Shown here: positions 11,154-61,693 of the stretch, one piece after another
Layout: each line of letters opens with the position of its first letter
Numbering within the stretch: the stretch's first letter is position 1
Origin: a virus
Taxonomy: Duplodnaviria > Caudoviricetes
Length of the DNA stretch: 64,000 nucleotides
IMG/VR virus record: IMGVR_UViG_3300036851_000198
Span: 1,829 to 65,828 of that record
Direction: 5' to 3' (one strand)
Program-made: the position numbers and the translations under genes
The notes under the pieces: generated by a model
Databases searched by the model: none
Seen by the model: only the letters and a program-made list of their open reading frames with translations
What the model was told of the DNA's origin: nothing

Positions 11154-11675
11154 ATGAAGGCTATTCAGACCAGATACTCTGGTCGTCATTTTCGGTCCCG
11201 TCTGGAAGCACGATGGGCAGTTTTCTTTGACGTTCTTGAGGTAGACTGGGAGTATGAGCTAGAGGGGTTTGACCTAGATGAGCTAGGTTGGTACCTGCCC
11301 GATTTTTGGTTGCCATCAATTGATTGCTGGTTTGAGGTAAAGCCAAAGGAGGCTAATGAAAAGGAGTGGGCGTTGTGTAGTGCGGTACGAGAAAACTTTG
11401 GCCCAATCATTCTCTCAAATGGCGGCCCCGACAAGATTCAAACTCTTTTGTGTATGAGTACTTGCGATAGTGGCGGCGGCCATTTTGATTGTGAAGGGGC
11501 CTTCACCAAAGTAATCAATGGCGCTCCCATATTCTCGCATTTGTATGATAATCACGAACTCTGTGACCATAATTGGAAGGATATTGAGTGGGTAGATATC
11601 GGCGATCCCACAAAGGCTTCGCCCCAAATGTGGAGAGCGATTGAGGCGAGTCTTTCCACTCGATTCGGTCGATGA
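11154..11675 (+). CDS. PD-(D/E)xK endonuclease-like protein
   Basis: FRSRLEARWAVFFD...YLPDFWLP...EVKP. Confidence 0.85.
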   Translation: MKAIQTRYSGRHFRSRLEARWAVFFDVLEVDWEYELEGFDLDELGWYLPDFWLPSIDCWFEVKPKEANEKEWALCSAVRENFGPIILSNGGPDKIQTLLCMSTCDSGGGHFDCEGAFTKVINGAPIFSHLYDNHELCDHNWKDIEWVDIGDPTKASPQMWRAIEASLSTRFGR

Positions 11676-13693
11676 ACAATGATTCGGTCTTTAGGGCCGC
11701 GCTCAAATATGCCAAACAAGGGCTTCCAGTCTTTCCTTGCCGTCCCAACAAAAGGCCATTTACCAAGAATGGCTTCTTGGATGCCTCAATAGATCCAGAC
11801 AAGGTTCGCAATTGGTGGATCCATTGGCCAAATGCCATGATCGGGATGCCAACCGGCAAGTTGTCCGGTGTTAGCGTGGTTGATGTTGGAAAAGACCCAT
11901 TGCCAACGGAACTAGATCAGTTTGTGAAGGCGAACGCTCGTGGTTGTGCCAAGCAACGGACTATGAGCGGAGGCTACCATCAACTTTACAAGCACGTTGA
12001 TGGGGTTCCTAGTGTTGGTCATGATAGTAGCAGGGGCGAACCAGATATAGACATCCGTGGCGAAGGTGGTTATGTAATTCTGGCCCCCAGTATAGGCAAG
12101 AACGGCCAATATCGATGGGTGCGTAATATGAGCTCTATCAAAGAGAGCTTTCCGGTTGATCTTGTTGGTATGTTGCGCAGCCGAAGAAACGGGAACAAGC
12201 CTTCCTCTAAGCCACCAGAAGAAGTGGAAATTGGTGAGCGCTATCCGGTGCTCAGATCACTTATAGCCGGTTTGTGGAACAGAAATGTTTCAATAGATGA
12301 AGCCCTAGATCGGGCCAAAGAGTTCAATGAACAGATGGCTGATCCTGTTCCGAATGAGCAGTGGGAGCGTCTTGTTCATTTTGGTTCTTGGCTCGAAGAT
12401 GAGGCTGAAACAAAAGAGGATATGTTCTGGATTGAGACTCCAATCCTCGATCACATTCGTTCCCATGCTCAAGCAAACCGAACGGCGCCATGGCCAGTTC
12501 TTGGTTGCGAACTTGCCAGAGTGGCTGCCGCTACCCATCCCAAGGTACAACTACCAGGTCGAGGCAGCGGTGCGAATAAGGGCAGTCTGAACCTCTTTGT
12601 TGCGCTTGTCGGAGAGCCTGGTAAGGGCAAGGATCAGGCGCTAGCCGAAGCTCGCAGCGCAATCGAGCTTGGTGATGATGATATAGCTTTGATGAGGCTT
12701 GGCTCGGGTGAAGGTCTTGCTCACGCTTACAAGGGTCGCAAGCGGGCTAGCAAGGATGAGCCGTACAAGGAGGTGTGGCTTCGTAGGCAGGTGATGTTTG
12801 AGGAGAGCGAGATTGAGACGGTTTTGAAGTTGGGCGGGCGACAGGGCAGCACCCTCATCTCAGAGCTACGGTCGGCTTGGAATGCAGGAAAGCTCGGGCA
12901 TATGTTCGTTGACCCTCAGAAGCGACTTGATATACCGACTCACTCTTATAGGATGTCGCTAGTTGTAGGAGTGCAGCCAAGCAAGGCAGGCGTGATCCTT
13001 GACGATTCGGCGGGCGGAATGCCGCAGCGGTTTTTGTGGTTGTTGTGCTCGGATCGCTGGGCGCCAGATTTCACAAGTAGTGAGTACGAGTTGAAGCCGA
13101 TTCAACTTGCTTATGCTGAAGTCCTCGACTCTGATCCAGAAGATCACATCATCCCTGTTTGTCAGTCTGCGGTTTCTGATATCGATGACTTTGCGAAGCG
13201 GAGTCTGCGCGGAGAGTATGATGGTGACCCTCTACGTGGGCATTGGCTCCAGAGTAAGCTCAAGGTCGCTGGTCTGTTGGCTATCATGCATGGTTGCACC
13301 GAAGTCGATGATGAGTGGTGGAGGATAGCGGACCTAGTTATGAAACGTTCAGATGAAGGCCGAGCGGTCTGTGCCTACCACTCGTGGCTTGAGCACGGCA
13401 AGGTGATTCGTGGCAAGGCCAAAGACGCTGCCGTGATTGCCGTCACATCGGCTGAGGCTGTTGAGGAAAAGAAGGTTGGACGGTGTCGAAAGGGTATCTT
13501 GAAGGTTGTGAAACCCTATCCGTCGTGGGTTGCTATGACGAGGATCAATAGGTCCTTGCGGTCGGACTTGAAAGACATACTTCATGATACGCTCGATTTG
13601 ATGGTATCCGAGGGTGTGTTGCGCGTTCGAACTCGTGGCTCTGGTGGACAGATATCCCAGCAGTATCAGCTTGCTCCGAAATCGAAGTGGTAG
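11672..13693 (+). CDS. bifunctional DNA primase/polymerase fused to a P-loop (DUF3987-like) domain
   Basis: VFPC..KRP, WPNAMIGMPTG, DIRGEGGYV; NLFVALVGEPGKGK. Confidence 0.9.
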   Translation: MNNDSVFRAALKYAKQGLPVFPCRPNKRPFTKNGFLDASIDPDKVRNWWIHWPNAMIGMPTGKLSGVSVVDVGKDPLPTELDQFVKANARGCAKQRTMSGGYHQLYKHVDGVPSVGHDSSRGEPDIDIRGEGGYVILAPSIGKNGQYRWVRNMSSIKESFPVDLVGMLRSRRNGNKPSSKPPEEVEIGERYPVLRSLIAGLWNRNVSIDEALDRAKEFNEQMADPVPNEQWERLVHFGSWLEDEAETKEDMFWIETPILDHIRSHAQANRTAPWPVLGCELARVAAATHPKVQLPGRGSGANKGSLNLFVALVGEPGKGKDQALAEARSAIELGDDDIALMRLGSGEGLAHAYKGRKRASKDEPYKEVWLRRQVMFEESEIETVLKLGGRQGSTLISELRSAWNAGKLGHMFVDPQKRLDIPTHSYRMSLVVGVQPSKAGVILDDSAGGMPQRFLWLLCSDRWAPDFTSSEYELKPIQLAYAEVLDSDPEDHIIPVCQSAVSDIDDFAKRSLRGEYDGDPLRGHWLQSKLKVAGLLAIMHGCTEVDDEWWRIADLVMKRSDEGRAVCAYHSWLEHGKVIRGKAKDAAVIAVTSAEAVEEKKVGRCRKGILKVVKPYPSWVAMTRINRSLRSDLKDILHDTLDLMVSEGVLRVRTRGSGGQISQQYQLAPKSKW

Positions 13694-17884: not shown

Positions 17885-19420
17885 ATGCTCGAAGTCACCG
17901 CCAAGAGCAACCTCGTCCAAGATCTGGAGAAGCTCCACGAGCTTTGGAACCCAAAGCCCAGCCCGTATCTGAACGACCCGATCGGGTGGTTGCATAACGT
18001 AGCCAAACAGGAGACTTGGTCCGGACAGGACGAAATCATCCAGTCAGTAGCAGACCATCGACATACTGCGGTGAAGAGTTGCTTCGGAATTGGCAAAAGC
18101 TGGACCGCAGCCTGGCTGGTGGGATGGTGGTTAGCAGAGAAAGCCGACCCATTCGTGGTAACGTCCGCCCCGACGAGCCATCAGGTCCGGACGATCCTCT
18201 GGCGGTACATCCGACGTGCGCAAACAGTAGCAGGACTCCCCGGGGTAATCAACCAGGGGCAGGTGCCCGAATGGAAGATCGCGGGTGAGCTTGTAGCATT
18301 TGGGCGCAAACCGGCTGACTACCTGGACGCGGACGAGGCAGCCGCCGCCTTCCAGGGGATCCATGCGTTGAACGTGCTAATCATTCTGGACGAGGGGTCG
18401 GGTATCCCCGAGTGGCTGGTGAACGCCTGTGAGGGGCTAGTCACGAACGAGAACTCCAGGATTCTCGTCATCGGCAACCCCGGTGACCCCGTGAGCCCAT
18501 TTGCCCGCATGTTCAGGCCCGCGTCGGGCTACAACAAGATAACCATAGCCGCCAAGGATACGCCCAACTTCACCGGCGAACACATCAGCGAAAACCTCAA
18601 GCAGTATCTCGTCAGTAAGCTCTGGGTTGACGAGCGCGCAAAGCGATGGGGCAAGCACAGCCCGCTGTACGTTTCCAAGGTTGACGCAGAGTTCCCCGAA
18701 GTCACGGACGACACCGTCTTCACCCCGGCGATCATCAACAAGGCGGTCCTCATAGACCGATCCAAGTTCGCCGTCAACGTCAAGGGCCGCTACGGGTTCG
18801 ACGTTGCGCGCATGGGTGTGGACGAAAGCTGCATCTACCACAACCGCGCAGGGTACATCCGCATGGTGAAGAAGTGGGGCAAGAAGGACACGATGGAGAG
18901 CGTAGGCGAGTACCGGCGCATGGTGAAGGACGAACCAAGACTTGCTCCGACCGCCGTGGTTGATGTCGTCGGCATAGGGTCCGGCGTATTTGACCGCCTC
19001 AAGGAGTTGAACTACAGCGTTGTTCCGTTCAACTCTGGCGAAAAGGCTTTCAACCCCCTCAAGTACAAGAACCGGCGGTCTGAGGCGTACTGGGAAGCCA
19101 AGGAGATGATGGATGAGGGGTTGATTGACATCGAGTTAGAAGATGAAGACCTTCAGGCCGAACTTCTGGAGCACAAGTACAAGACAACCAGCACCGGACT
19201 CATCCAGATCGAGCCGAAGGAGGACATCGCCCAAAGACTGGGTCGAAGTCCAGACCGCGCCGACGCCTTCGTCATGAGCCTCCAGAAGAGCGCCGATCTT
19301 ACCCAGCTCATGCGCGAGCAACAGCAAACCAAACCTCAGGACCCGACAGAGCCGCCGCCCGACCGGGGCAGCGATGCACCCGAAGATCTGGTTTCTGACC
19401 TCTTCGACATAAAGATGTAA
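17885..19420 (+). CDS. terL: terminase large subunit
   Basis: Walker A SCFGIGKS, IILDE, IGNP, nuclease GFDVARMGVD and SPDRADA. Confidence 0.95.
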   Translation: MLEVTAKSNLVQDLEKLHELWNPKPSPYLNDPIGWLHNVAKQETWSGQDEIIQSVADHRHTAVKSCFGIGKSWTAAWLVGWWLAEKADPFVVTSAPTSHQVRTILWRYIRRAQTVAGLPGVINQGQVPEWKIAGELVAFGRKPADYLDADEAAAAFQGIHALNVLIILDEGSGIPEWLVNACEGLVTNENSRILVIGNPGDPVSPFARMFRPASGYNKITIAAKDTPNFTGEHISENLKQYLVSKLWVDERAKRWGKHSPLYVSKVDAEFPEVTDDTVFTPAIINKAVLIDRSKFAVNVKGRYGFDVARMGVDESCIYHNRAGYIRMVKKWGKKDTMESVGEYRRMVKDEPRLAPTAVVDVVGIGSGVFDRLKELNYSVVPFNSGEKAFNPLKYKNRRSEAYWEAKEMMDEGLIDIELEDEDLQAELLEHKYKTTSTGLIQIEPKEDIAQRLGRSPDRADAFVMSLQKSADLTQLMREQQQTKPQDPTEPPPDRGSDAPEDLVSDLFDIKM

Positions 19421-27070: not shown

Positions 27071-27169
27071 GGGAACGGCAAGCGCACCGTCGCCAAGGCG
27101 TAGCTACTGCTTCGCGTGAAAAGCAATAGGTAGAACGAAAATGAAACGAAATTGAATGGAGGTGAAATC

Positions 27170-54535: not shown

Positions 54536-55438
54536 TTACTGCCACGCTGCGGTTGGGTCGCTGAGCCATTCTGATGAATGGATCTCATCGAAGCGCCCTG
54601 CCTCGACTCGTTCGCGTATGGTGCAACCACGATCTGCTCCTGATTTGAACATACACTTGCCGGTGTTGAAGCAGATCGGCTGAAAGATCTGGGAGTCTGC
54701 AATGTACTCGAACTGCCAGCGCGCTCCACGCAATTCATATGTCGGTCCGCCCATATCTTCAATTTGGTATGCTTTTGGAGGATTGTATTCTCGGATTGCT
54801 TGGCGCAACGATGCCACCCATTCCTTCCAGGGCATCTGGGCTTGTGTGCACAAGCGCTTGCCTATTTCATCTATAAGGTTGCGAAGTGACACTTTATGAT
54901 GAAGTCTAGTAAGAATATCGTGTGGGAGCAAGCCCCGAGCTTCCTCAGCTGGTACGCCGTTAGCGATCAGCCAAGCGTACACCTCTCCGACCTTGTCTAT
55001 GGCTTCGTAGTAGCGCTTGAGCTTCTTGGTATCTGCCTGGATGATTGGACCCGGTCGAACTGACTCTCTCAAGTTTTCCTTGACTGCGAATCGCATTGAT
55101 TCCTGTGCAAACACCGCTGTCCGCTGCCGTACTTCCTGATGCGTATGCGCGCGAGTTACCCCCTCAACCATAATATGTAGGTCGCAAAACTCAAGCGGAG
55201 CCTTTAGTGTGGTCTTGAAACACTCATCGAAGTAGTGCCTGCGCTCGTCGTCGGTAATCTCGCTGAGGTCGTGTATAACGCGACCTTCGTACATTAGTGA
55301 CGCAGCCGCTATTGCTCCTAGCGGATCTGGTGTGGCTGACAAAAGATGCACTACTGGGTGGCTGAGTGCAGTCTCCGGAATCGGCTCGGCCTCATACATC
55401 GAGGAATCTACCCAATTTGAAACTTCCTGTCCCATCAA
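54536..55438 (-). CDS. thyX: flavin-dependent thymidylate synthase
   Basis: PLEF, VTRAHTHQEVRQRTAVFAQESMRF, AEEARGLLP, RLCTQAQ. Confidence 0.85.
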   Translation of the reverse strand: MMGQEVSNWVDSSMYEAEPIPETALSHPVVHLLSATPDPLGAIAAASLMYEGRVIHDLSEITDDERRHYFDECFKTTLKAPLEFCDLHIMVEGVTRAHTHQEVRQRTAVFAQESMRFAVKENLRESVRPGPIIQADTKKLKRYYEAIDKVGEVYAWLIANGVPAEEARGLLPHDILTRLHHKVSLRNLIDEIGKRLCTQAQMPWKEWVASLRQAIREYNPPKAYQIEDMGGPTYELRGARWQFEYIADSQIFQPICFNTGKCMFKSGADRGCTIRERVEAGRFDEIHSSEWLSDPTAAWQ

Positions 55439-55449
55439 TTACTCCTGAC

Positions 55450-55899
55450 TCATTGAACTTCGCCAAGGTACTCGTAGTCCTGCCACCTTGTGTATTGTCC
55501 GTCTATGAAGAATCCCCATCCGCTCTGCCGCTTGCCGGTAAAGATGAGCGTCTTCAATCTCGGCGATGCGTAGGTGATTCTGTGTGCCTCCTTTCGACCC
55601 ATTTTGTGCGCGCTAAAGCGTCGGTGGTGCTGAGTATGGTAGTTGTATGATTTCTTATCTGGATACGGATAGACGCGCTCCGTGTAGCTTCCGCGCAGCA
55701 CTACAGAGATGAACGTCCATGGGTGATTGTGGCAATCGCGGTCGCCGTCTGGTTCGTAGATGTCATGTAGGTAGATGCCGAACCATGGCGTCTGGATGAG
55801 TCGCAGTCGAGCGAGGTACGGAATCCCGCCCTGGCAGTTGATGAGCATCCTAGACCAGAAGGCCCACATCGGCGAACGCTTACCCACAACTTGCGCCAT
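55450..55899 (-). CDS. cupin-fold phage protein
   Basis: IYLH...D.DRDCHNHPWTFISVVLRGSYTE...HRI. Confidence 0.7.
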   Translation of the reverse strand: MAQVVGKRSPMWAFWSRMLINCQGGIPYLARLRLIQTPWFGIYLHDIYEPDGDRDCHNHPWTFISVVLRGSYTERVYPYPDKKSYNYHTQHHRRFSAHKMGRKEAHRITYASPRLKTLIFTGKRQSGWGFFIDGQYTRWQDYEYLGEVQ

Positions 55900-56074
55900 T
55901 ATCTACCTACCATTTGTCCGAAGTGAATCGTACACAACTGCTTTCCGAAACAGAACTCGCATTCCTCGACACGCAGCCATAACTCGATCTCATCTTCAAG
56001 CTCATCCTCGGTTATGACATCGGTCGCGTACTCGTTGTGCAACTTTTCCATCTCCGGTTTGGTATCGAAGTTGT

Positions 56075-56269
56075 TCACAGATCGGTGCTCTTCCAGTTCT
56101 CAAGTGCCTCGTACATGATGTCTTGCGCTCTCACGAATGCGCGGATTGCGTCGTGCTCGCTGGAGTGACCTTCACCGGTGGCGACTACCTCTCCGTTGCC
56201 AGCCTTCAGTCGCCAGCGGTACTCGCCGGGGCTGCCTTCATCCTGATAGAACTCGACTTTTGGTCTCAT
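56075..56269 (-). CDS. YegP/DUF1508 family protein
   Basis: GEYRWRLKAGNGEVVATGEGH. Confidence 0.85.
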   Translation of the reverse strand: MRPKVEFYQDEGSPGEYRWRLKAGNGEVVATGEGHSSEHDAIRAFVRAQDIMYEALENWKSTDL

Positions 56270-56273
56270 GAAG

Positions 56274-56519
56274 TTACCTCCGTAGGTGTTCGAAAGAGGC
56301 GTTTTCAATAGCTTCGATAAGCGCGACGATTCCATGCGCCAGTAGCCTCCGTTCTGCCTGCCTTTGATCGGCAAGAAGCGTTAGCTGTAGCGACATTATC
56401 TCTTCATCTGTTTTGTTAGCCGCATCTGCTTCGACTGCTGCTCGCTCGATGTCGAGTTGATTCGAGTATGCAAAGATGGTTTCCTTCAGGATTTTTTCCA
56501 ATTGATCCTCACTTCCCAA
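56274..56519 (-). CDS. hypothetical protein; start uncertain
   Basis: helical ORF. Confidence 0.5.
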   Translation of the reverse strand: MGSEDQLEKILKETIFAYSNQLDIERAAVEADAANKTDEEIMSLQLTLLADQRQAERRLLAHGIVALIEAIENASFEHLRR

Positions 56520-56545
56520 CCCGGTATGTAATGATCAAGCATCAT
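56486..56545 (-). pseudogene. displaced original 3' end of the glycosyltransferase gene
   Basis: MMLDHYIPGWEVRINWKKS* aligns with the present end KMLDEFCPDWKKRINWTKR*. Confidence 0.75.
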
Positions 56546-57066
56546 CTGATATCCTTCAAACACCTTATGATTGGAGTTTGTGATACACCATATTCTACTG
56601 CTAACCTTCTTATCAATCCGTGTTTATATTTCGCATTGATGTATTTGTTTCTGATCTCTTCCGCTTGCGCTCTGTCTATTTTTGAATGAGCAACCCCCAT
56701 CTTCTGTTTTGTTTCGTTTGTGAGTCGCTTTCCGGTATTTGCCATTGAAATTTTCAATGCCGTTTCTTTTGTTATGACTCTTCCCTTCGCTGCGATACTC
56801 AATTTTGATCGGTATTCATCGCCAATCAACTTGCCCTTATGGTGGAGGCTGGTGTGACACCGAAGGTGCATGAATCGAAGATTTGACGGATTGTTATTTG
56901 CACTATCAAAATCAAAATGGTGGATAGCGATTCTTTCCTGTACGCCTACAAACTTTACACCATCCCAGTATGATTCGGTTTCCTTTCCACAACCCCAACA
57001 ATTATGAGGTCCTTCCCCAAATTTTCCATGAAAGCTCTTGTGGTGCTTCCATTTGCTTGCGCTCAT
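56542..57066 (-). CDS. HNH homing endonuclease with NUMOD3 repeats
   Basis: IHHFDFDSANNNPSNL...CHTSLH; ETALKISMANTGK; AT-rich. Confidence 0.9.
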   Translation of the reverse strand: MSASKWKHHKSFHGKFGEGPHNCWGCGKETESYWDGVKFVGVQERIAIHHFDFDSANNNPSNLRFMHLRCHTSLHHKGKLIGDEYRSKLSIAAKGRVITKETALKISMANTGKRLTNETKQKMGVAHSKIDRAQAEEIRNKYINAKYKHGLIRRLAVEYGVSQTPIIRCLKDIR

Positions 57067-57875
57067 CTTTTAGTCCAGTTTATCCTTTTCTTCCAGTCGG
57101 GACAGAATTCATCTAACATCTTCTTCCAGCGACAGACTAGGTTTCCTCCCATCCTCGGTTTGTTTATATACTCCGGCCACCTTTCGTGCATCATTCTATG
57201 GCAGGAGAACTCGGCTTGGGCTCTCCGGTCCTCGTCCTCATCGTGCAGCGCATTCAATCCTCCCTGTTCATGTCGTCCGCCGATACTCACGCCCTGCACG
57301 CCCGCGTGAACGTACCATGTGTAGCCATAGCGTGCGATTCCTTCGCGGACGATTTCATTGTCGCTCCCAAAGGTATGCAATCGGCTGTCGAAGTTGCCAC
57401 ACTTCAGTGCCCGTGCTATGTCGAGCGAGAACAGGCGCTTGCCCATCGCGTTCGTCATCAAGAGCGGGTCGTCGCGCTCGCGTATTGTGTTGTTTCCGAA
57501 CGTTAGTCCGTAGAATGGCAGCATGGCGCCGATGCCTAGCGTGCGGAGTCTGTCGAATTCCATCAGACGATTGACGTCACTATCCGGATGCGGGTACAGA
57601 TCGTCGTCCGCCATGATGATGCGCGCTATTCCCCAGGAGTCTGCCAAATCAACTATCCATGATCGTGCGTAGGCGATACCTCGATTCGACTTTGGTAGTG
57701 TTAGGACGCTGTGCACATTCTTGAACGGACTTCCTGAGATTAGCTCTAGGTGGCTCGGTGTATCTTCGCGCTCGCCTACGATGTGGATCTCAACGTCCTG
57801 CTCCTGCCACTTCGGAAGCACCTTCTCAAGACAATGCAGGCGGCGTTTCGTTGGTATGAATACGACGGACTTCAT
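57063..57875 (-). CDS. GT-A fold glycosyltransferase (TAGT/GREB1-like), putative DNA modification
   Basis: FIPTKRR, GIAYARSWI, IMADDDL, late GG motif. Confidence 0.7.
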   Translation of the reverse strand: MKSVVFIPTKRRLHCLEKVLPKWQEQDVEIHIVGEREDTPSHLELISGSPFKNVHSVLTLPKSNRGIAYARSWIVDLADSWGIARIIMADDDLYPHPDSDVNRLMEFDRLRTLGIGAMLPFYGLTFGNNTIRERDDPLLMTNAMGKRLFSLDIARALKCGNFDSRLHTFGSDNEIVREGIARYGYTWYVHAGVQGVSIGGRHEQGGLNALHDEDEDRRAQAEFSCHRMMHERWPEYINKPRMGGNLVCRWKKMLDEFCPDWKKRINWTKR

Positions 57876-58144
57876 GGCCCTGTGTCGTAAATAGCCCGTC
57901 TAATATCAGCCATGGCGCCTTTGTACTCTTCCTCCACAAAAAGTCCTTCTTCAATACGACCCAGTACTGATTGGATTGACAGAAGAGCGCCGGTTATCGC
58001 TTTGGCATCGAGACTAACACCTTCGTGAAATAAGAGTTGTCTAGCAAATTCAGCATACTCTCCTGTTGACGATGAATCGCTAGGGATTTCAACTCTGCTA
58101 CCGTCGGCAAAGTTGATGAACCAATCTGGATTCTCTACGTCCAT
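57872..58144 (-). CDS. hypothetical protein
   Basis: AAGGAG SD, ATGA overlap. Confidence 0.65.
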   Translation of the reverse strand: MDVENPDWFINFADGSRVEIPSDSSSTGEYAEFARQLLFHEGVSLDAKAITGALLSIQSVLGRIEEGLFVEEEYKGAMADIRRAIYDTGP

Positions 58145-58155
58145 ATCTGCTCCTT

Positions 58156-58989
58156 TTACGGTCTGATTACCCAGAGCTTGTTTACTTGTACGCCGTAACG
58201 TGGCTTACGGCCCGTGACCAACAATAGATCGCCTTCCTCTAGGTTGAATAGGTAATCTTTGTACTTCGGGAACCTCCATCTGTTGAGTTTTAGCATTGTC
58301 TGGTCGTTCTCGTCGCGGGCATACAGGATGGCGAACTCGCGCAGATGCGGGTCCTTCATCGTGCTCAGATCTACCACCGTGCCGCGTGCCTGGTTCACTT
58401 CTCCTATGTCTCTAATGTTGTACTTTACGAGTTCACCCAGCCAAACTACTCGCCTGCCCTGCTCTTCCTCATCTAGCTCGCGAGCGTTGTGTGTTGGGTA
58501 TGGCAAGCTATCGGCTCCGTCCCGCAGCGCCTCCGACTTCAATTCGCGCTTGACCGCCTTGATCGACTTCTCAAGCCGGTAGATGTCGAATGGGTCGTCC
58601 TGCTCTAGCCACTCTTTGATCTTCTCGATTGACTTCGGACCAATGCCGCTGACTGCGATTAGTTCGTCCCATTGCCTGGGGTCGAACTCGATGATCTTCT
58701 CGGCGGTCTTGGGTCCGATCTTGTCTATCTGGGTATACCCTGCGACGATGCGCTTGCGCTTTAGTTTGCCATTCCAATCAGGCTTCCAGCTTACATCCGA
58801 CTTGCCTGGCACCGGCTTGAGCACCTTGATGTTGTGCTTCTCCGCGTCCCGAAGGATGTCTCGTTGCTTGTGCTCTCCGTAGTGGCGCGCACTGGCTGCA
58901 TAAAAGGCAGTTGGATAGTGAACCTTGAACCACATCGTCCAATATGCTAGCAACCCGTAGGCAACGCAATGGGCTGCGTTGAATGCGTA
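58156..58989 (-). CDS. dnaE: DNA polymerase III alpha, segment 3 (fingers end, HhH, OB fold)
   Basis: YAFNAAHCVAYGLLAYWTMWFKVHYP, IDKIGPKTA; joined to segment 2 across a 5-nt gap. Confidence 0.85.
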   Translation of the reverse strand, partial: YAFNAAHCVAYGLLAYWTMWFKVHYPTAFYAASARHYGEHKQRDILRDAEKHNIKVLKPVPGKSDVSWKPDWNGKLKRKRIVAGYTQIDKIGPKTAEKIIEFDPRQWDELIAVSGIGPKSIEKIKEWLEQDDPFDIYRLEKSIKAVKRELKSEALRDGADSLPYPTHNARELDEEEQGRRVVWLGELVKYNIRDIGEVNQARGTVVDLSTMKDPHLREFAILYARDENDQTMLKLNRWRFPKYKDYLFNLEEGDLLLVTGRKPRYGVQVNKLWVIRP

Positions 58990-58994
58990 CAGTA

Positions 58995-61298
58995 CGAGCC
59001 GGAAGTAATCATACTCATCCAGGCTCGTTTGGCAATCACCTCCTCAATCTTCGGGTAGTCGGTTCGTTTGTGTAACGTTTGACACCCTTCCCAAAATCTA
59101 CCCCAACTTCGGTTGAACTCCTGCTCGCCTATCTTCCGGCTGATGATCTTGCGAATGTACGCGGCGTGCGTCCACGGGAAGTCTCCCACTTCTCGTACAA
59201 TGCGTAGGATCTGTTCCTGATAGACGATCTGAAACTGCGTGTCTGCGGTGATCGCATCAATCGCAGGGTGAAGTCTCTCCGGTTCTGCCCGTCCAAACTT
59301 GATAGCAGCATACGCACTTGCTGCCCCATTGTGAAGAGGGCCGGGTCGAGATAGAGCGTTGCAGTCCATGATCTCGATAAACTTCTCTGGCTTGAGGATT
59401 TGACACACAGATCGCATCGCACGCCCATCAAATTGAAAGACCGCTGTGACATCGTTCTCCTTGAACCCTTTGTATACCCTTTGGTCATCGAGCGGGATCG
59501 AGTACAGATCGTCAAGGTCCATATTGCACCACTTGAGCATTGTCCAGAGCGCACTCATGGTACTCAGGCCCAGGAAGTCGATCTTGAGTAGTCCCTGCCG
59601 CTCCGCGTCGTACTTGTCGAATGCAACAACGTCGGCATAGGTGTCCTTGATCTTCTTGCGATAGATCGCCGCCACGTCGCTAATCGGACCGCTGGATACA
59701 ACGTATGCCGCTGCGTGTACCCCTGACCCTCTGACGTTGCCCTCCAATAGCTGCGCTTCGCGGAGCTTTGGGAACCGTTCTATCACGTCTTGTGCCTGCG
59801 GGAACTGCTCGATGGTGTCCTCGACGGTAGCGCTGGCACGTAGGTCGCCTGAGCTTCGCTCTATGAGGAACGACTTGATCGTCTCAACCTCAAACTTCGG
59901 GATCTTGTAGACGCGAGCGATATCGTCCAGAGAGTTCTTGCCCTTGAAGTACACAAACGTGCCGATGTTAGCTACGTGCCCGTCATACTTCTTCTCCAGA
60001 TACTCGCGCAGGATGCCGGTGTCGCGAACTTCGGATGGGAAGTCGATGTCGATGTCGGGCAAGTCCTCGCGGGTTACGTCGATGAATCGCTCAAAGATCA
60101 GAAGCGGGAAGCGCATCGGATCGACTTCCGTGATGCGCATGACGAACGCTACCAAGCTACCTGCCGCCGAGCCTCGCGCCGGTCCTACTGGTATGCCTTT
60201 GTTCTTGATGAAGACGATGGCGTCCGCGACGATGAGGAAGTAGTTTTCATACCCCTTCTGTTCGATCATCTCGACTTCGTACTTGAGCCTCTTCCTGTAC
60301 TTCGCTCTCTCTGCGCCGGTGAGCTTGTCGAAGCCCCGGTACTTCCAGCCCTCGCGGATCTGGTGACGCCAGAAATCCTTGGCGGTTTTGTAACCCGGCG
60401 GCAGTGGGAACGTTGGCATATCCAGGCGCGGCAGGGTGACGGTGCATTCCTCGGCTATGTCTGCCGTCGTCTGGATCGCCTCTATTGCCTGACTCTGTGT
60501 AAGTCCGGTCCCTTTGAGCTTCCGTAGGATGGTCGAATCGTTGATGGGAGGGGCCAATCCGATGTCGTATCCCCAATCTCTCTCCAATTCCTCCGTAGTG
60601 CGCTTCTCGCCAGGACGTAGGCCGTGCAGTATTTTCTGAACCTCGGCCTCTTCCAGAGCTGTGTAGTGGCAGTCCATCGAGGCCACCAGTCGGCTTCCAA
60701 TACGATGCGCAATCCGAGCGAGTAGCTTGTTTGCTTGTCGAGTTCTCTCAAGCTCAGGAAATCCTTGTACCTCGACGAAATAATCACCGCCGAAATGACG
60801 TTTGAATTCCCTGGCAACTTTGAGTCCGCGACCAAATGACGCATGTTTCTCGTCTAGCCCCTTTCCGCCGACCGTTGAGCAGAACAACAGGCTGCCTGCG
60901 CAGCCCGACATTATGACTAGCCCCTTCTTGTGTTTGCAGAGTGTATCAAACCTTATTGTCGGTTCGTACCTGAACCCCGTCTGTCCTGCATCTGCCGGTT
61001 CACCATTAGGCCCTCTCTCCCAAGAGAGGTTCATCAGTTTGAGCAGGTTCCTGTAGCCGACCGCGTTCTTGGCGAGCACTGTGAGGTGCATCTTGCGCTG
61101 TCCGCGATTGTCCCACGGGCACGGCATGTAAATCTCGCATCCAAAGATCGGCTTGACGCCCTTGATCTTCTCGCACGCTTCCTCAAACTTGACGTGGCTG
61201 TCGATATTGCCGTGCTCGGTCATGACCATCGCAGACATGTTCAACTCGGTAGCCCGACGCACATGAGCCTCGGGCATCTGGTACCCATCGAGATATGA
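58995..61298 (-). CDS. dnaE: DNA polymerase III alpha, segment 2 (PHP, palm, thumb, fingers)
   Basis: SYLDG, GPARGSAAGS, REDLPDIDIDF, GVHAAA, KIDFLGL, VFQF, YQEQ. Confidence 0.95.
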
Positions 61299-61305
61299 CT
61301 AAAGA

Positions 61306-61533
61306 GAAGGTCGAATGATGGTGCAAACTTGCAAACCTCATCGACCTTCTATTCCCCCTCACCACCTTCCGTACAAAGATCGGAGGATCTTTGTGTACTG
61401 CTATCTTGTCGGCTGCCAGACTGTGAGCAAGCGGACCGCGCACCCTCTTTGTTTTGGTTTTGTCCACTTCCTTATCTCGCCAAGATCCGCTGGAGCCTTT
61501 GCCCCAGTTATCGCCACCTGATGTCTTAGGCAC
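61306..61533 (-). CDS. dnaE: DNA polymerase III alpha, segment 1 (N-terminus; alternative start 61341)
   Basis: MRFASLHHHSTF, first half of PHP motif I; joined to segment 2 across a 7-nt gap. Confidence 0.8.
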
Positions 61534-61693
61534 TAGTTTCTCCTAGTTGGATCAGTGCCTCGCCCAGAATCTCTCTATTTTGGTCACGAGGAAATGAGAA
61601 ACCATCATCGTAAGCCATTGCCAATCTAATTGCCCACAGCACTCCTTCGCGCTGATCATCAGTCAGGAAGTAAATGTTACCTTTTGCAGTCAA
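61526..61693 (-). CDS. hypothetical protein
   Basis: TTG start after GGGGAGG, TTGA overlap. Confidence 0.55.
   Translation of the reverse strand: MTAKGNIYFLTDDQREGVLWAIRLAMAYDDGFSFPRDQNREILGEALIQLGETSA

What the first reader, a model, noticed from the sequence alone, without database searches (positions are those of the whole stretch)
58984..58997. dnaE coding gap 2: a 5-nt insert UAC-UG-UAC inside the GSY|AFNAAH motif
Seen: the mRNA reads UCC GGC UCG UAC UG UAC GCA UUC AAC GCA GCC CAU. The main frame runs into 14 unrelated codons and stops at 58947. Skipping 5 nt restores SGSYAFNAAHCVAYG (the DnaE YxFNxxH motif) and a further roughly 265 aa of HhH/OB region. Take-off and landing codons are identical (UAC), and the A-site codon is UGU, the minor Cys codon in high-GC genomes. 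All catalytic motifs of the gene are intact. Inference: a second hop. Two independent gaps in core motifs of one essential gene, gated by different codons, would act as an AND-type translational checkpoint on replication. I know of no described double-bypass polymerase. Alternatives: assembly error, a repair scar at a homing-endonuclease or intein hotspot, or a dead gene.
Basis: partly seen in the sequence, partly recalled or inferred. Interest (0 to 1): 0.88.

Follow-up and report, generated by a model that had tools for sequence, protein, structure and literature searches.

The report
Five-base coding gap in phage DnaE
The only DNA polymerase gene of an uncultured soil phage is broken inside an invariant motif by five real extra bases, and the signals around them suggest that ribosomes hop over the break, a rare way of reading a gene that has not been tested here.

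Summary
On the minus strand, 58997-58984 reads TCG TAC TG TAC GCA. Five bases absent from every relative examined break the dnaE-like gene between GS|Y and AFNAAH. A second assembly of what is probably the same sample has the same sequence, so it is not an assembler slip.

Apart from this insert and the 7-nt one at 61302-61296, the gene looks alive. It differs at 6 of 288 family-invariant positions, all conservative changes. No other gene shared with two complete relatives is frame-broken.

Gap 2 has matched UAC codons. UGU, the phage's second-rarest sense codon, sits in the A site. A window-specific 10-nt Shine-Dalgarno-like run and a hairpin end at the take-off codon. This resembles the published candidate bypass sites in Streptomyces phage terminases (PMC10732093), but without their UUA.

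The same motif carries HNH inteins in three other phages.

Best reading: a +5 ribosomal hop, confidence 0.55. A recently inactivated gene is the main rival. No relative shares the insert, so conservation cannot be tested.

Earlier unchecked AI notes of this scan report coding gaps in dnaE of other phages, and this window's gap 1.

The parts
58156..61533 (-). dnaE-like DNA polymerase III alpha gene in three frame segments: 61533-61303, 61295-58992 and 58986-58156
   Evidence: Pfam PHP, DNA_pol3_alpha and DNA_pol3_finger on P0001, and HhH on P0002. It is the only PF07733 match in the 65.8-kb record. Identity to the closest relatives is 75.6% with X at the breaks.
58992..58994 (-). Proposed take-off codon UAC (Tyr of GSY)
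   Evidence: It is the last codon that matches the family in the incoming frame.
58987..58991 (-). 5-nt coding gap UG-UAC. UGU (58991-58989) is the A-site codon at take-off. UAC (58989-58987) is the landing codon.
   Evidence: Insert absent from six aligned relatives. Present in the Logan contig. TGT is the second-rarest sense codon at 2.9 per 1000.
58984..58986 (-). Resume codon GCA (Ala of AFNAAH)
59035..59044 (-). Internal Shine-Dalgarno-like run AGGAGGTGAT, 40 nt 5' of the take-off codon
   Evidence: One of only two 10-nt matches in the window counting both strands. 0 of 79 distinct relatives have a match of 7 nt or more in the equivalent 70 nt. No ATG, GTG or TTG follows it in the target frame before the gap (read).
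58995..59027 (-). Predicted hairpin whose 3' arm (GGCUCG) ends one base before the take-off codon
   Evidence: -15.8 kcal/mol for the 45 nt upstream. 11 of 500 shuffles and 6 of 79 relatives fold as well. The stem also appears in the 111-nt fold, which as a whole is not significant (z -1.37).
58947..58949 (-). Stop codon met by ribosomes that do not hop, 14 codons after the gap
61296..61302 (-). Gap 1: 7-nt insert UUAGUCA between HHHSTFS and YLDG. UCU is before it, UCA is its last three bases, and UUA is in the A site.
   Evidence: TTA is the rarest sense codon. This gap is the subject of a separate finding.
61305..61350 (-). Strong hairpin ending in the gap-1 take-off codon
   Evidence: -22.5 kcal/mol. 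0 of 500 shuffles and 0 of 59 relatives reach it (relatives' minimum -11.0). z -4.5 in a 101-nt fold.

Best explanation
The five bases are a real, frame-breaking insert in the phage's only replicative polymerase gene. The full-length enzyme is most likely made by a short translational bypass.

Proposed steps:
1. Peptidyl-tRNA(Tyr) pairs with UAC (58994-58992) in the P site while the rare codon UGU waits in the A site.
2. The tRNA lets go of the message, the mRNA slides five bases, and the tRNA re-pairs with the identical UAC (58989-58987).
3. Decoding resumes at GCA and yields ...ITSGSY-AFNAAH..., exactly as in every relative.

A 10-nt Shine-Dalgarno-like run and a hairpin that ends at the take-off codon are proposed to promote the slide. 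Refolding of mRNA leaving the ribosome, anchored by SD:anti-SD pairing, would pull the message forward. Ribosomes that do not hop stop 14 codons later. The same gene needs a second hop of 7 nt at 61302-61296.

The insert may persist because it shifts the DNA target of intein homing endonucleases that use this motif.

What is shown: the insert, its reality in the DNA, the intact rest of the gene, the matched codons, the rare A-site codon, the SD-like run and the hairpin. What is inferred: the hop itself, its efficiency, the role of each signal, and the immunity benefit.
For: (1) The DNA is real. Two assemblies agree with 0 differences over 3.5 kb.

(2) The gene is otherwise under constraint. 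There are no other stops or shifts. It deviates at 6 of 288 positions invariant in 12 relatives, all conservative, against 16 and 20 for the intact lineages L006 and L015.

(3) Damage is confined to dnaE. Of 192 ORFs from two complete relatives that hit the window, 9 hit in more than one frame: the 2 dnaE ORFs, 3 antisense or out-of-frame shadow ORFs overlapping gap 2, and 4 unrelated cases (one paralogue at two places, three shadow ORFs). No other shared gene is broken.

(4) dnaE is the only PF07733 hit in the record. The only other polymerase-like domain I found among the ORFs scanned was a primase-polymerase.

(5) Take-off and landing codons are identical. At gap 1 they match in two of three bases (UCU/UCA).

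(6) The A-site codons of the two gaps are the rarest (TTA, 0.8 per 1000) and second-rarest (TGT, 2.9 per 1000) sense codons in 9,648 confident codons.

(7) The 10-nt SD-like run is window-specific. 0 of 79 relatives have a match of 7 nt or more, and only two such 10-mers occur in 128 kb of both strands.

(8) The hairpin abuts the take-off codon. Gap 1 has a much stronger hairpin in the same position, unmatched by 500 shuffles and 59 relatives. That argues the gene as a whole is still expressed.

(9) The 25 residues before gap 2 that encode these signals are 47-60% identical to the three closest relatives. Those relatives are 80-95% identical to each other there, and the flanks are 95-100% identical.

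(10) There is precedent. The phiHau3 terminase has two 10-nt gaps and a prophage terminase has a 7-nt gap at highly conserved junctions, with a proposed 5' stem loop plus flanking Shine-Dalgarno signal and some experimental support (PMC10732093, sections 19 and 20 and passages). Short hops between matched codons over slow A-site codons are known in E. coli (PMC5009743, passages).
Against: No relative carries the insert. Counts: 0 of 15, 0 of 80, 0 of the 16 metagenome loci that cover the motif, and 0 of 75 pattern hits lying in a dnaE. Among genome loci, 52 of 55 have one match spanning the motif and none of the 55 shows a frame change there. The closest relative is only about 76-81% identical, so conservation of the gap, the strongest kind of evidence, is missing.

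UGU is a normal sense codon. It is 28 of 67 Cys codons, occurs twice elsewhere in dnaE, and is read by the same tRNA as UGC (established knowledge). It is neither a stop nor the UUA of the published cases.

The gap-2 hairpin is unremarkable. 6 of 79 relatives fold as well, and the 111-nt fold has z -1.37 with 18 of 200 shuffles as good.

Internal 9-nt SD-like runs occur elsewhere in sense orientation without any gap, for example at 12767.

Matched flanking codons are also what a duplication-type mutation leaves behind.

Two sequential hops would give little full-length protein unless each is efficient. In phiHau3 the full-length product was hard to detect.

Only one sample and only contigs were seen, with no raw reads, so a minor insert-free variant cannot be excluded.
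Confidence: 0.55

Rival explanations
1. The gene is recently inactivated. The contig represents a defective phage genome or a silent prophage whose polymerase was knocked out by two insertions. No full-length DnaE is made.
For: Every relative examined is intact at this motif. The window is the only such case. Only contigs from one sample were available. CheckV completeness is 78%, and the record is linear with no terminal repeats. UGU is an ordinary codon.
Against: Two independent frame-breaking insertions fall in one gene that covers about 5% of the window. None falls in the other genes shared with complete relatives. There are no further stops and only 6 of 288 conservative deviations at invariant positions. 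The window-specific SD-like run and the gap-1 hairpin are not expected in a dead gene. Gene order matches a complete relative with terminal repeats, and no gene of evident host origin was seen in the parts compared.
Confidence: 0.27
2. This rival concerns origin only and is compatible with the hop. The five bases are a scar or immunity mark at an intein homing site, left by error-prone repair of an endonuclease cut or by imprecise loss of an intein. They are kept because they displace the endonuclease target.
For: HNH-type inteins sit at YAF|N in L096 and in Gordonia phage Wojtek, and at AAH|S in L091. Those sites are 2 and 6 codons downstream of the gap. They were the only large in-frame inserts in 80 relatives. 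In T4 the bypass insert protects against the MobA nuclease that travels with it (one passage of preprint 10.1101/2022.08.31.505936). The insert can be read as TGT plus AC, the first codon and the last two bases of a Cys...Asn intein. It also turns CGTACG into the 11-nt palindrome CGTAC-T-GTACG. Both of these readings are my own and post hoc.
Against: No intein and no endonuclease gene lies next to the gap. The nearest HNH gene, at 56542-57066, is 1.1 kb beyond the gene's end. No endonuclease target is known for this motif. The PHP motif at gap 1 carried no intein in the 80 relatives.
Confidence: 0.35
3. The frame is recovered by another route. Either a -1 (or +2) ribosomal frameshift adds one residue (SGSY-L-YAFN), or the C-terminal part is made separately, by reinitiation at the TTG at 58953 that overlaps the stop.
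For: The target frame is open upstream to 59043. TTG 58953-58951 overlaps the stop at 58949-58947. An upstream SD-like run can stimulate frameshifting in bacteria (PMC5009743, passage).
Against: There is no slippery heptamer at or before the gap. A -1 shift would add a residue inside an invariant motif. A product starting at the TTG would lack YAFNAAHCVAYG, and the upstream product would lack it too, although the motif is conserved as far as M. tuberculosis DnaE1. There is no ATG, GTG or TTG in the target frame between the SD-like run and the gap.
Confidence: 0.06
4. The insert is a sequencing or assembly artefact.
For: The contig is metagenome-assembled and comes from one sample. Raw reads were not available.
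Against: Logan's independent assembly of the run is identical over 3.5 kb at word depth 11.5, with no alternative contig. A 5-nt and a 7-nt non-homopolymer insertion are not typical read errors. All other shared genes are in frame.
Confidence: 0.03

Closest known systems
UUA-led coding gaps in large-terminase genes of Streptomyces phage phiHau3 (two 10-nt gaps) and of the StrepC.1 and S. catenulae prophages (the latter 7 nt). Source: PMC10732093, of which I read the abstract, sections 19 and 20, and passages.
   Same: Short frame-breaking inserts lie in an essential gene of an actinophage-like virus, at highly conserved protein junctions. Two gaps occur in one gene. The flanks are contiguous in relatives. 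A 5' stem loop plus a flanking internal Shine-Dalgarno sequence is the proposed signal. A rare codon sits in the A site.
   Different: Gap 2 has no UUA. Its A-site codon is UGU, which shares its tRNA with UGC. It is 5 nt long, not 7-10. The gene is a polymerase, not a terminase. There is no bench evidence here. I could not see the paper's supplementary tables and figures with the gap sequences, so take-off and landing codons could not be compared.
Phage T4 gene 60 50-nt bypass within the MobA homing-endonuclease element. Sources: passages in PMC10732093 and PMC5009743; one passage of preprint 10.1101/2022.08.31.505936; abstract only of PMC7026636.
   Same: Take-off and landing codons match. 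The peptidyl-tRNA is retained. 5' mRNA structure and an SD-like element contribute. The insert lies in a conserved region of an essential DNA-metabolism gene and is linked to homing-endonuclease biology.
   Different: The T4 gap is 50 nt, against 5 nt here. T4 has a stop codon in the A site and a take-off stem loop within the gap, and it depends on a nascent-peptide signal. The T4 endonuclease gene is adjacent, and none is adjacent here. About 40% efficiency was measured in T4, and nothing has been measured here.
Short-distance hops in E. coli over stop or aminoacyl-tRNA-limited sense codons between matched codons (reviewed in PMC5009743, passages read)
   Same: Same geometry: a few bases are skipped, the codons match, and the A-site codon is slow to decode.
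   Different: Those cases are low-level events in synthetic or over-expression settings and are not needed for a natural gene. Here the hop would be required to make an essential enzyme.
Bypassed inserts ('byps') in mitochondrial genes of the yeast Magnusiomyces capitatus (PMC5009743, passage read)
   Same: Many short frame-disrupting inserts are tolerated by translational 'correction'. Matching between take-off and landing codons can be imperfect, as at this gene's gap 1.
   Different: That system uses mitochondrial ribosomes, an unused codon in the A site, and longer inserts (recalled), and it appears independent of mRNA context. Here there are two gaps with context signals in a phage.

Membership tests
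DnaE / DNA polymerase III alpha | PHP, polymerase core, finger and HhH domains in order, with conserved motifs | tested here: met
   PF02811, PF07733 and PF17657 are above their cut-offs on P0001, and HhH is found on P0002. YAFNAAH aligns with YAFNKSH of M. tuberculosis DnaE1 (5lew) in a relative.
Programmed translational bypass (hop) | Non-coding insert inside an ORF whose removal restores the conserved protein exactly | tested here: met
   removing 5 nt gives SGSY|AFNAAH with no residue gained or lost.
Programmed translational bypass (hop) | Take-off codon matched by a landing codon directly 5' of the resume codon | tested here: met
   UAC at 58994-58992 and UAC at 58989-58987. A duplication-type mutation would leave the same pattern.
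Programmed translational bypass (hop) | Slow-to-decode codon (stop, unassigned or starved) in the A site at take-off | tested here: inconclusive
   UGU is the second-rarest sense codon (28 of 9,648) but makes up 42% of Cys codons. No tRNA genes were found in the window. The host's tRNA supply is unknown.
Programmed translational bypass (hop) | Dedicated stimulatory signals in the mRNA or nascent peptide | tested here: inconclusive
   The SD-like 10-mer is window-specific. A hairpin abuts the take-off codon but is matched in stability by 6 of 79 relatives. Their function was not tested.
Programmed translational bypass (hop) | Gap conserved, with variation, among relatives | tested here: not met
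   0 of 15, 0 of 80 and 0 of 16 loci carry an insert at the motif. 0 of 75 pattern hits lie in a dnaE. No frame change at the motif in 55 genome loci, 52 with one match spanning it. No relative closer than about 80% identity is on record.
Programmed translational bypass (hop) | Junction peptide or trans-frame product observed | not testable with these tools
   No RNA or proteome data. No RNA run was listed.
UUA-led actinophage coding gaps (phiHau3 type) | UUA codon at the 5' end of the insert | tested here: not met
   Gap 2 begins with UGU. Gap 1 of the same gene does begin with UUA.
UUA-led actinophage coding gaps (phiHau3 type) | 5' stem loop with a flanking internal Shine-Dalgarno sequence | tested here: met
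   SD-like run at 59044-59035, a 7-nt spacer, then the hairpin at 59027-58995.
MobA / gene 60-type mobile bypass cassette | Homing-endonuclease gene adjacent to the bypass insert, moving with it | tested here: not met
   The nearest HNH gene (56542-57066) lies 1.1 kb beyond the gene's end, with two genes between.
Programmed -1/+1 ribosomal frameshift | Slippery sequence that allows re-pairing in an overlapping codon, with a product colinear with homologues | tested here: not met
   There is no X XXY YYZ or CUU-U-type site at 59000-58985. A one-base shift would add a residue inside an invariant motif.
Pseudogene | Relaxed constraint: further stops, shifts or changes at invariant positions | tested here: not met
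   No further stops or shifts. 6 of 288 conservative deviations. A very recent inactivation would look the same.

The most novel reading that the evidence does not exclude
A natural, obligatory +5 hop over an ordinary sense codon, with no stop and no UUA. It would be driven by an SD-anchored hairpin that refolds behind the ribosome. It would work in series with a UUA-led +7 hop, so that a phage replicase is made only by ribosomes that hop twice. The five bases would also protect the gene's YAFNAAH motif from the intein homing endonucleases that invade it in related phages.
Probability: 0.3. Interest if true: 0.85.

Novelty: new variant of a known kind. Interest (0 to 1): 0.62.

Why it matters
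Required translational bypassing has been shown at the bench for very few genes. In the papers I read, these were T4 gene 60 and its homologues and the yeast mitochondrial inserts, with the Streptomyces phage terminases as supported candidates.

A 5-nt gap gated by a plain sense codon in a replicative polymerase would have three consequences:
- Short hops could rescue insertions in core motifs of essential phage genes.
- The trigger would not need to be a stop or an unreadable codon.
- Recoding would be tied to the arms race with inteins and homing endonucleases.

Practically, gene callers and viral-quality tools would mislabel such genes as pseudogenes.

If the gene is instead simply dead, the case is ordinary, apart from marking YAFNAAH as an intein hot spot.

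Tried and rejected
Assembly error: rejected as the main reading, because the second assembly is identical.

General sequencing noise or whole-genome decay: rejected, because only dnaE is frame-broken among genes shared with G002 and G003.

Independent start for the C-terminal piece behind the SD-like run: rejected. There is no ATG, GTG or TTG in the target frame between 59043 and 58990 (read).

Phage-encoded special tRNA or a known RNA element: none found. ARAGORN found 0 genes and Rfam gave 0 matches at gathering scores.

Tc1/mariner- or IS630-type excision footprint (TA-CTG-TA): I considered this from memory. I set it aside because gap 1 does not fit TA-NNN-TA, I saw no transposase, and it cannot be tested here.

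Conservation of the gap: I looked for it five ways (46/47, 59-61) and found none. The pattern scan required the codons TTC AAC GC and a TCN serine, so differently coded cases would be missed. The window's own record is withheld from these scans.

Megablast against cultured phages: no match.

Expression: no RNA holder was listed, so nothing can be said about it.

A part without extra cover, and the 443-nt 'joint', come from short contigs of about 90% likeness, probably from other organisms. I did not use them.

At about 76% protein identity to the nearest relative, it would measure history before the inserts arose. The invariant-column count was used instead.

Literature: searches found no report of bypassing in a dnaE or Pol III gene (listings only, apart from the papers named).
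Full report
What is there. The window is 64,000 of the 65,828 bases of an IMG/VR virus record from a soil metagenome. The record is linear, with CheckV completeness 78%. On the minus strand lies a dnaE-like DNA polymerase III alpha gene. Pfam finds PHP, DNA_pol3_alpha and DNA_pol3_finger on the 776-aa middle frame and helix-hairpin-helix on the last frame. It is the only PF07733 match in the record. The only other polymerase-type domain among the ORFs I scanned is a primase-polymerase at 11672-13693. 58997-58984 reads TCG TAC TG TAC GCA. The incoming frame runs on for 14 unrelated codons to a stop at 58949-58947. The other frame continues YAFNAAHCVAYG... for about 276 residues to 58156.

The insert against relatives. 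I fetched 15 related IMG/VR loci (48-81% identity). All 15 read the gene in one frame over the part they hold, as does Mycobacterium phage Adjutor gp65. A DNA alignment with six relatives shows two frame-breaking differences. One is a 7-nt insert TTAGTCA at 61302-61296, between HHHSTFS and YLDG. The other is the 5-nt insert at 58995-58991, between GS(Y) and AFNAAH. The remaining window-only indels inside the homologous part of the gene keep the frame. Both inserts fall in columns that are invariant in a 12-sequence alignment. The YAFNAAH motif aligns with YAFNKSH of M. tuberculosis DnaE1.

Wider searches for the insert:
- 80 further viral loci: no frame change.
- 19 metagenome loci, of which 16 cover the motif: none has an insert there. 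L114 and L130 have one-base-type shifts elsewhere.
- 55 genome loci: 52 have one match spanning the motif. L209 and L218 shift elsewhere.
- A pattern scan of IMG/VR for 1-12 extra bases between GSY and AFNA: 75 hits, none in a dnaE.

So the insert is unique to this record, and its nearest relative is only about 76-81% identical.

Is it real? One public run holds the stretch, and it is probably the sample the record came from. Logan's contig of that run matches 58100-61600 with no differing letter and no gap at word depth 11.5. No alternative contig lacks the insert. This is a second assembly, not a second sample. Contigs also drop rare variants, so a minor insert-free allele is not excluded.

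Is the gene dead? I translated every ORF of 70 aa or more from two complete relatives (G002, which has terminal repeats, and G003) and compared them with the window. 192 ORFs hit, and 9 hit in more than one frame. Two of these are the dnaE ORFs themselves and three are shadow ORFs over gap 2. The other four are one paralogue at two places and three shadow ORFs. No other shared gene is frame-broken, and that includes the long virion-region ORFs on the plus strand. With X at each break, the window's protein deviates at 6 of 288 positions invariant in the 12 relatives: A>V, V>I, C>A, L>M, A>S and T>S. The intact lineages L006 and L015 deviate at 16 and 20. Two multi-base insertions in one gene that covers about 5% of the window, and none elsewhere, do not look like neutral decay. 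A very recent double hit cannot be excluded.

Signals at the gap. The codon before the gap and the last three bases of the gap are both UAC. A peptidyl-tRNA(Tyr) could therefore re-pair five bases downstream, and decoding would resume at GCA.

In 29 confident ORF segments (9,648 codons), TTA is the rarest sense codon (8 occurrences) and TGT the second rarest (28). These are the A-site codons of gap 1 and gap 2. However, TGT is 28 of 67 Cys codons, so it is not strongly avoided (a cruder gene set gives the same ranking).

Forty bases upstream lies AGGAGGTGAT (59044-59035), a 10-nt match to a recalled Shine-Dalgarno consensus. Only two such 10-mers occur in both strands of the window. None of 79 distinct relatives has a match of 7 nt or more in the equivalent 70 nt. 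Real start sites in the window use the same kind of sequence, for example at 27158 and 31085. No ATG, GTG or TTG follows this run in the target frame before the gap, so it is not the ribosome-binding site of a separate C-terminal gene.

Between the run and the gap, bases 59027-58995 fold into a hairpin whose 3' arm ends one base before the take-off codon. Its energy is -15.8 kcal/mol, matched by 11 of 500 shuffles and by 6 of 79 relatives. The larger 111-nt fold is not significant (z -1.37).

The 25 residues that encode these elements are 47-60% identical to the three closest relatives. Those relatives are 80-95% identical to each other there, and the flanks are 95-100% identical. Other such window-specific patches exist in the gene, so this is only suggestive.

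Gap 1 has a much stronger hairpin in the same position (61350-61305, -22.5 kcal/mol). No shuffle of 500 and no relative of 59 reaches it. I take that as the best single sign that the gene is still being read, and if so gap 2 must be crossed too.

Published context. An earlier AI note of this scan on gap 1 (e1-6250695) pointed me to Antonov et al. 2023 (PMC10732093), which I then read myself: the abstract, sections 19 and 20, and passages. The phiHau3 terminase has two 10-nt frame-disrupting inserts, and one prophage terminase has a 7-nt insert. Each insert starts with UUA and lies at a highly conserved junction. The proposed signals are a 5' stem loop and a flanking internal Shine-Dalgarno sequence. 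A full-length product was seen in Streptomyces, and a junction peptide was seen in E. coli after UUA was changed to UAA. The review PMC5009743 (passages) records short hops between matched codons over slow A-site codons, and 'savior' indels corrected in translation.

Gap 2 shares the architecture but not the UUA. That is the main way it departs from the published kind. My literature searches for bypassing in dnaE or Pol III found nothing. The scan's own unchecked notes list coding gaps in dnaE of several other uncultured phages. I did not test those.

Why here? Two of the 80 relatives carry large in-frame inserts, both at this motif. L091 has one between AFNTAH and S. L096 has one between YAF and NAAH. 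Both pass the Pfam Intein_splicing cut-off and have weak HNH matches. A homologous intein sits at YSF|NIAH in the DnaE of the cultured Gordonia phage Wojtek. The motif is therefore a homing site, 2 and 6 codons from the gap. In T4 the bypass insert protects the gene from the nuclease that travels with it (one passage of preprint 10.1101/2022.08.31.505936). By analogy, the five bases may have arisen as a repair scar or intein remnant and been kept because they shift the nuclease target. This is inference. No endonuclease gene adjoins the gap. The window's three HNH genes lie at 203-745, 1308-1865 and 56542-57066.

Verdict. The best-supported mechanism is a +5 hop at matched UAC codons, helped by a rare A-site codon and an SD-plus-hairpin element (confidence 0.55). 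The main rival is a recently inactivated gene in a defective genome (0.27). A frameshift or split-gene route (0.06) and an artefact (0.03) are unlikely. The origin as an intein or endonuclease scar is compatible with the hop. An in-frame UUA at 59075-59073 in the same gene encodes a conserved Leu, which sits badly with the idea that such codons are unreadable when the gene is expressed. The case is a new variant of a known kind, resting on one sequence and no bench data.

Noticed in passing
L096:3742-4800; L262 (Gordonia phage Wojtek gp72); L091:3700-4800: DnaE inteins at the YAFNAAH motif. In L096 and Wojtek the intein (C...HHN) is followed by Asn, not Cys, Ser or Thr, so the +1 residue is not a usual nucleophile. 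L091 has a standard ...HN|S junction three residues further on.
   Followed up: partly
window 59075-59073 (minus strand): An in-frame UUA inside dnaE, 27 codons before gap 2, encodes a Leu that is conserved in close relatives (CQTL). If UUA were too slow to read, this codon would also hinder expression. That bears on the UUA-gated reading of gap 1.
   Followed up: partly
window 61350-61303 (minus strand): A 46-nt hairpin (-22.5 kcal/mol) ends in the gap-1 take-off codon UCU. Its 5' arm lies in variable codons (RRSMR) and pairs with the codons of the invariant HHHSTFS. It is absent from all 59 relatives.
   Followed up: partly
window 58997-58985 (minus strand): The insert converts CGTACG into an 11-nt perfect palindrome, CGTAC-T-GTACG, and removes the 6-nt palindrome. 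I cannot say whether this matters for restriction or for a nuclease target.
   Followed up: no
L114:3980-4050; L130:150-360; L209; L218: Other relatives have frame changes elsewhere in dnaE. L114 shifts at MRI|AGYSQ, with one base in place of a codon directly after an out-of-frame TAG. L130 shifts about 17 codons before the motif. L209 shifts at about residue 353-365 and L218 at about residue 565. These may be sequencing errors or further recoding sites.
   Followed up: no
window 54536-57875 (minus strand): Downstream of dnaE lie a TET-associated glycosyltransferase-like gene (57063-57875), an HNH/NUMOD3 endonuclease (56542-57066), a cysteine-dioxygenase-like gene (55450-55899) and ThyX (54536-55438). 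This suggests a DNA base-modification module.
   Followed up: partly
window 57872-58144 (minus strand): A 90-aa ORF directly after dnaE has no Pfam or PHROG match and no counterpart in the complete relatives G002 and G003.
   Followed up: partly
window 19434-19424 (minus strand): The only other SD-like match of 10 nt or more in the window lies antisense to the plus-strand late genes, at the end of the ORF 17885-19420.
   Followed up: no
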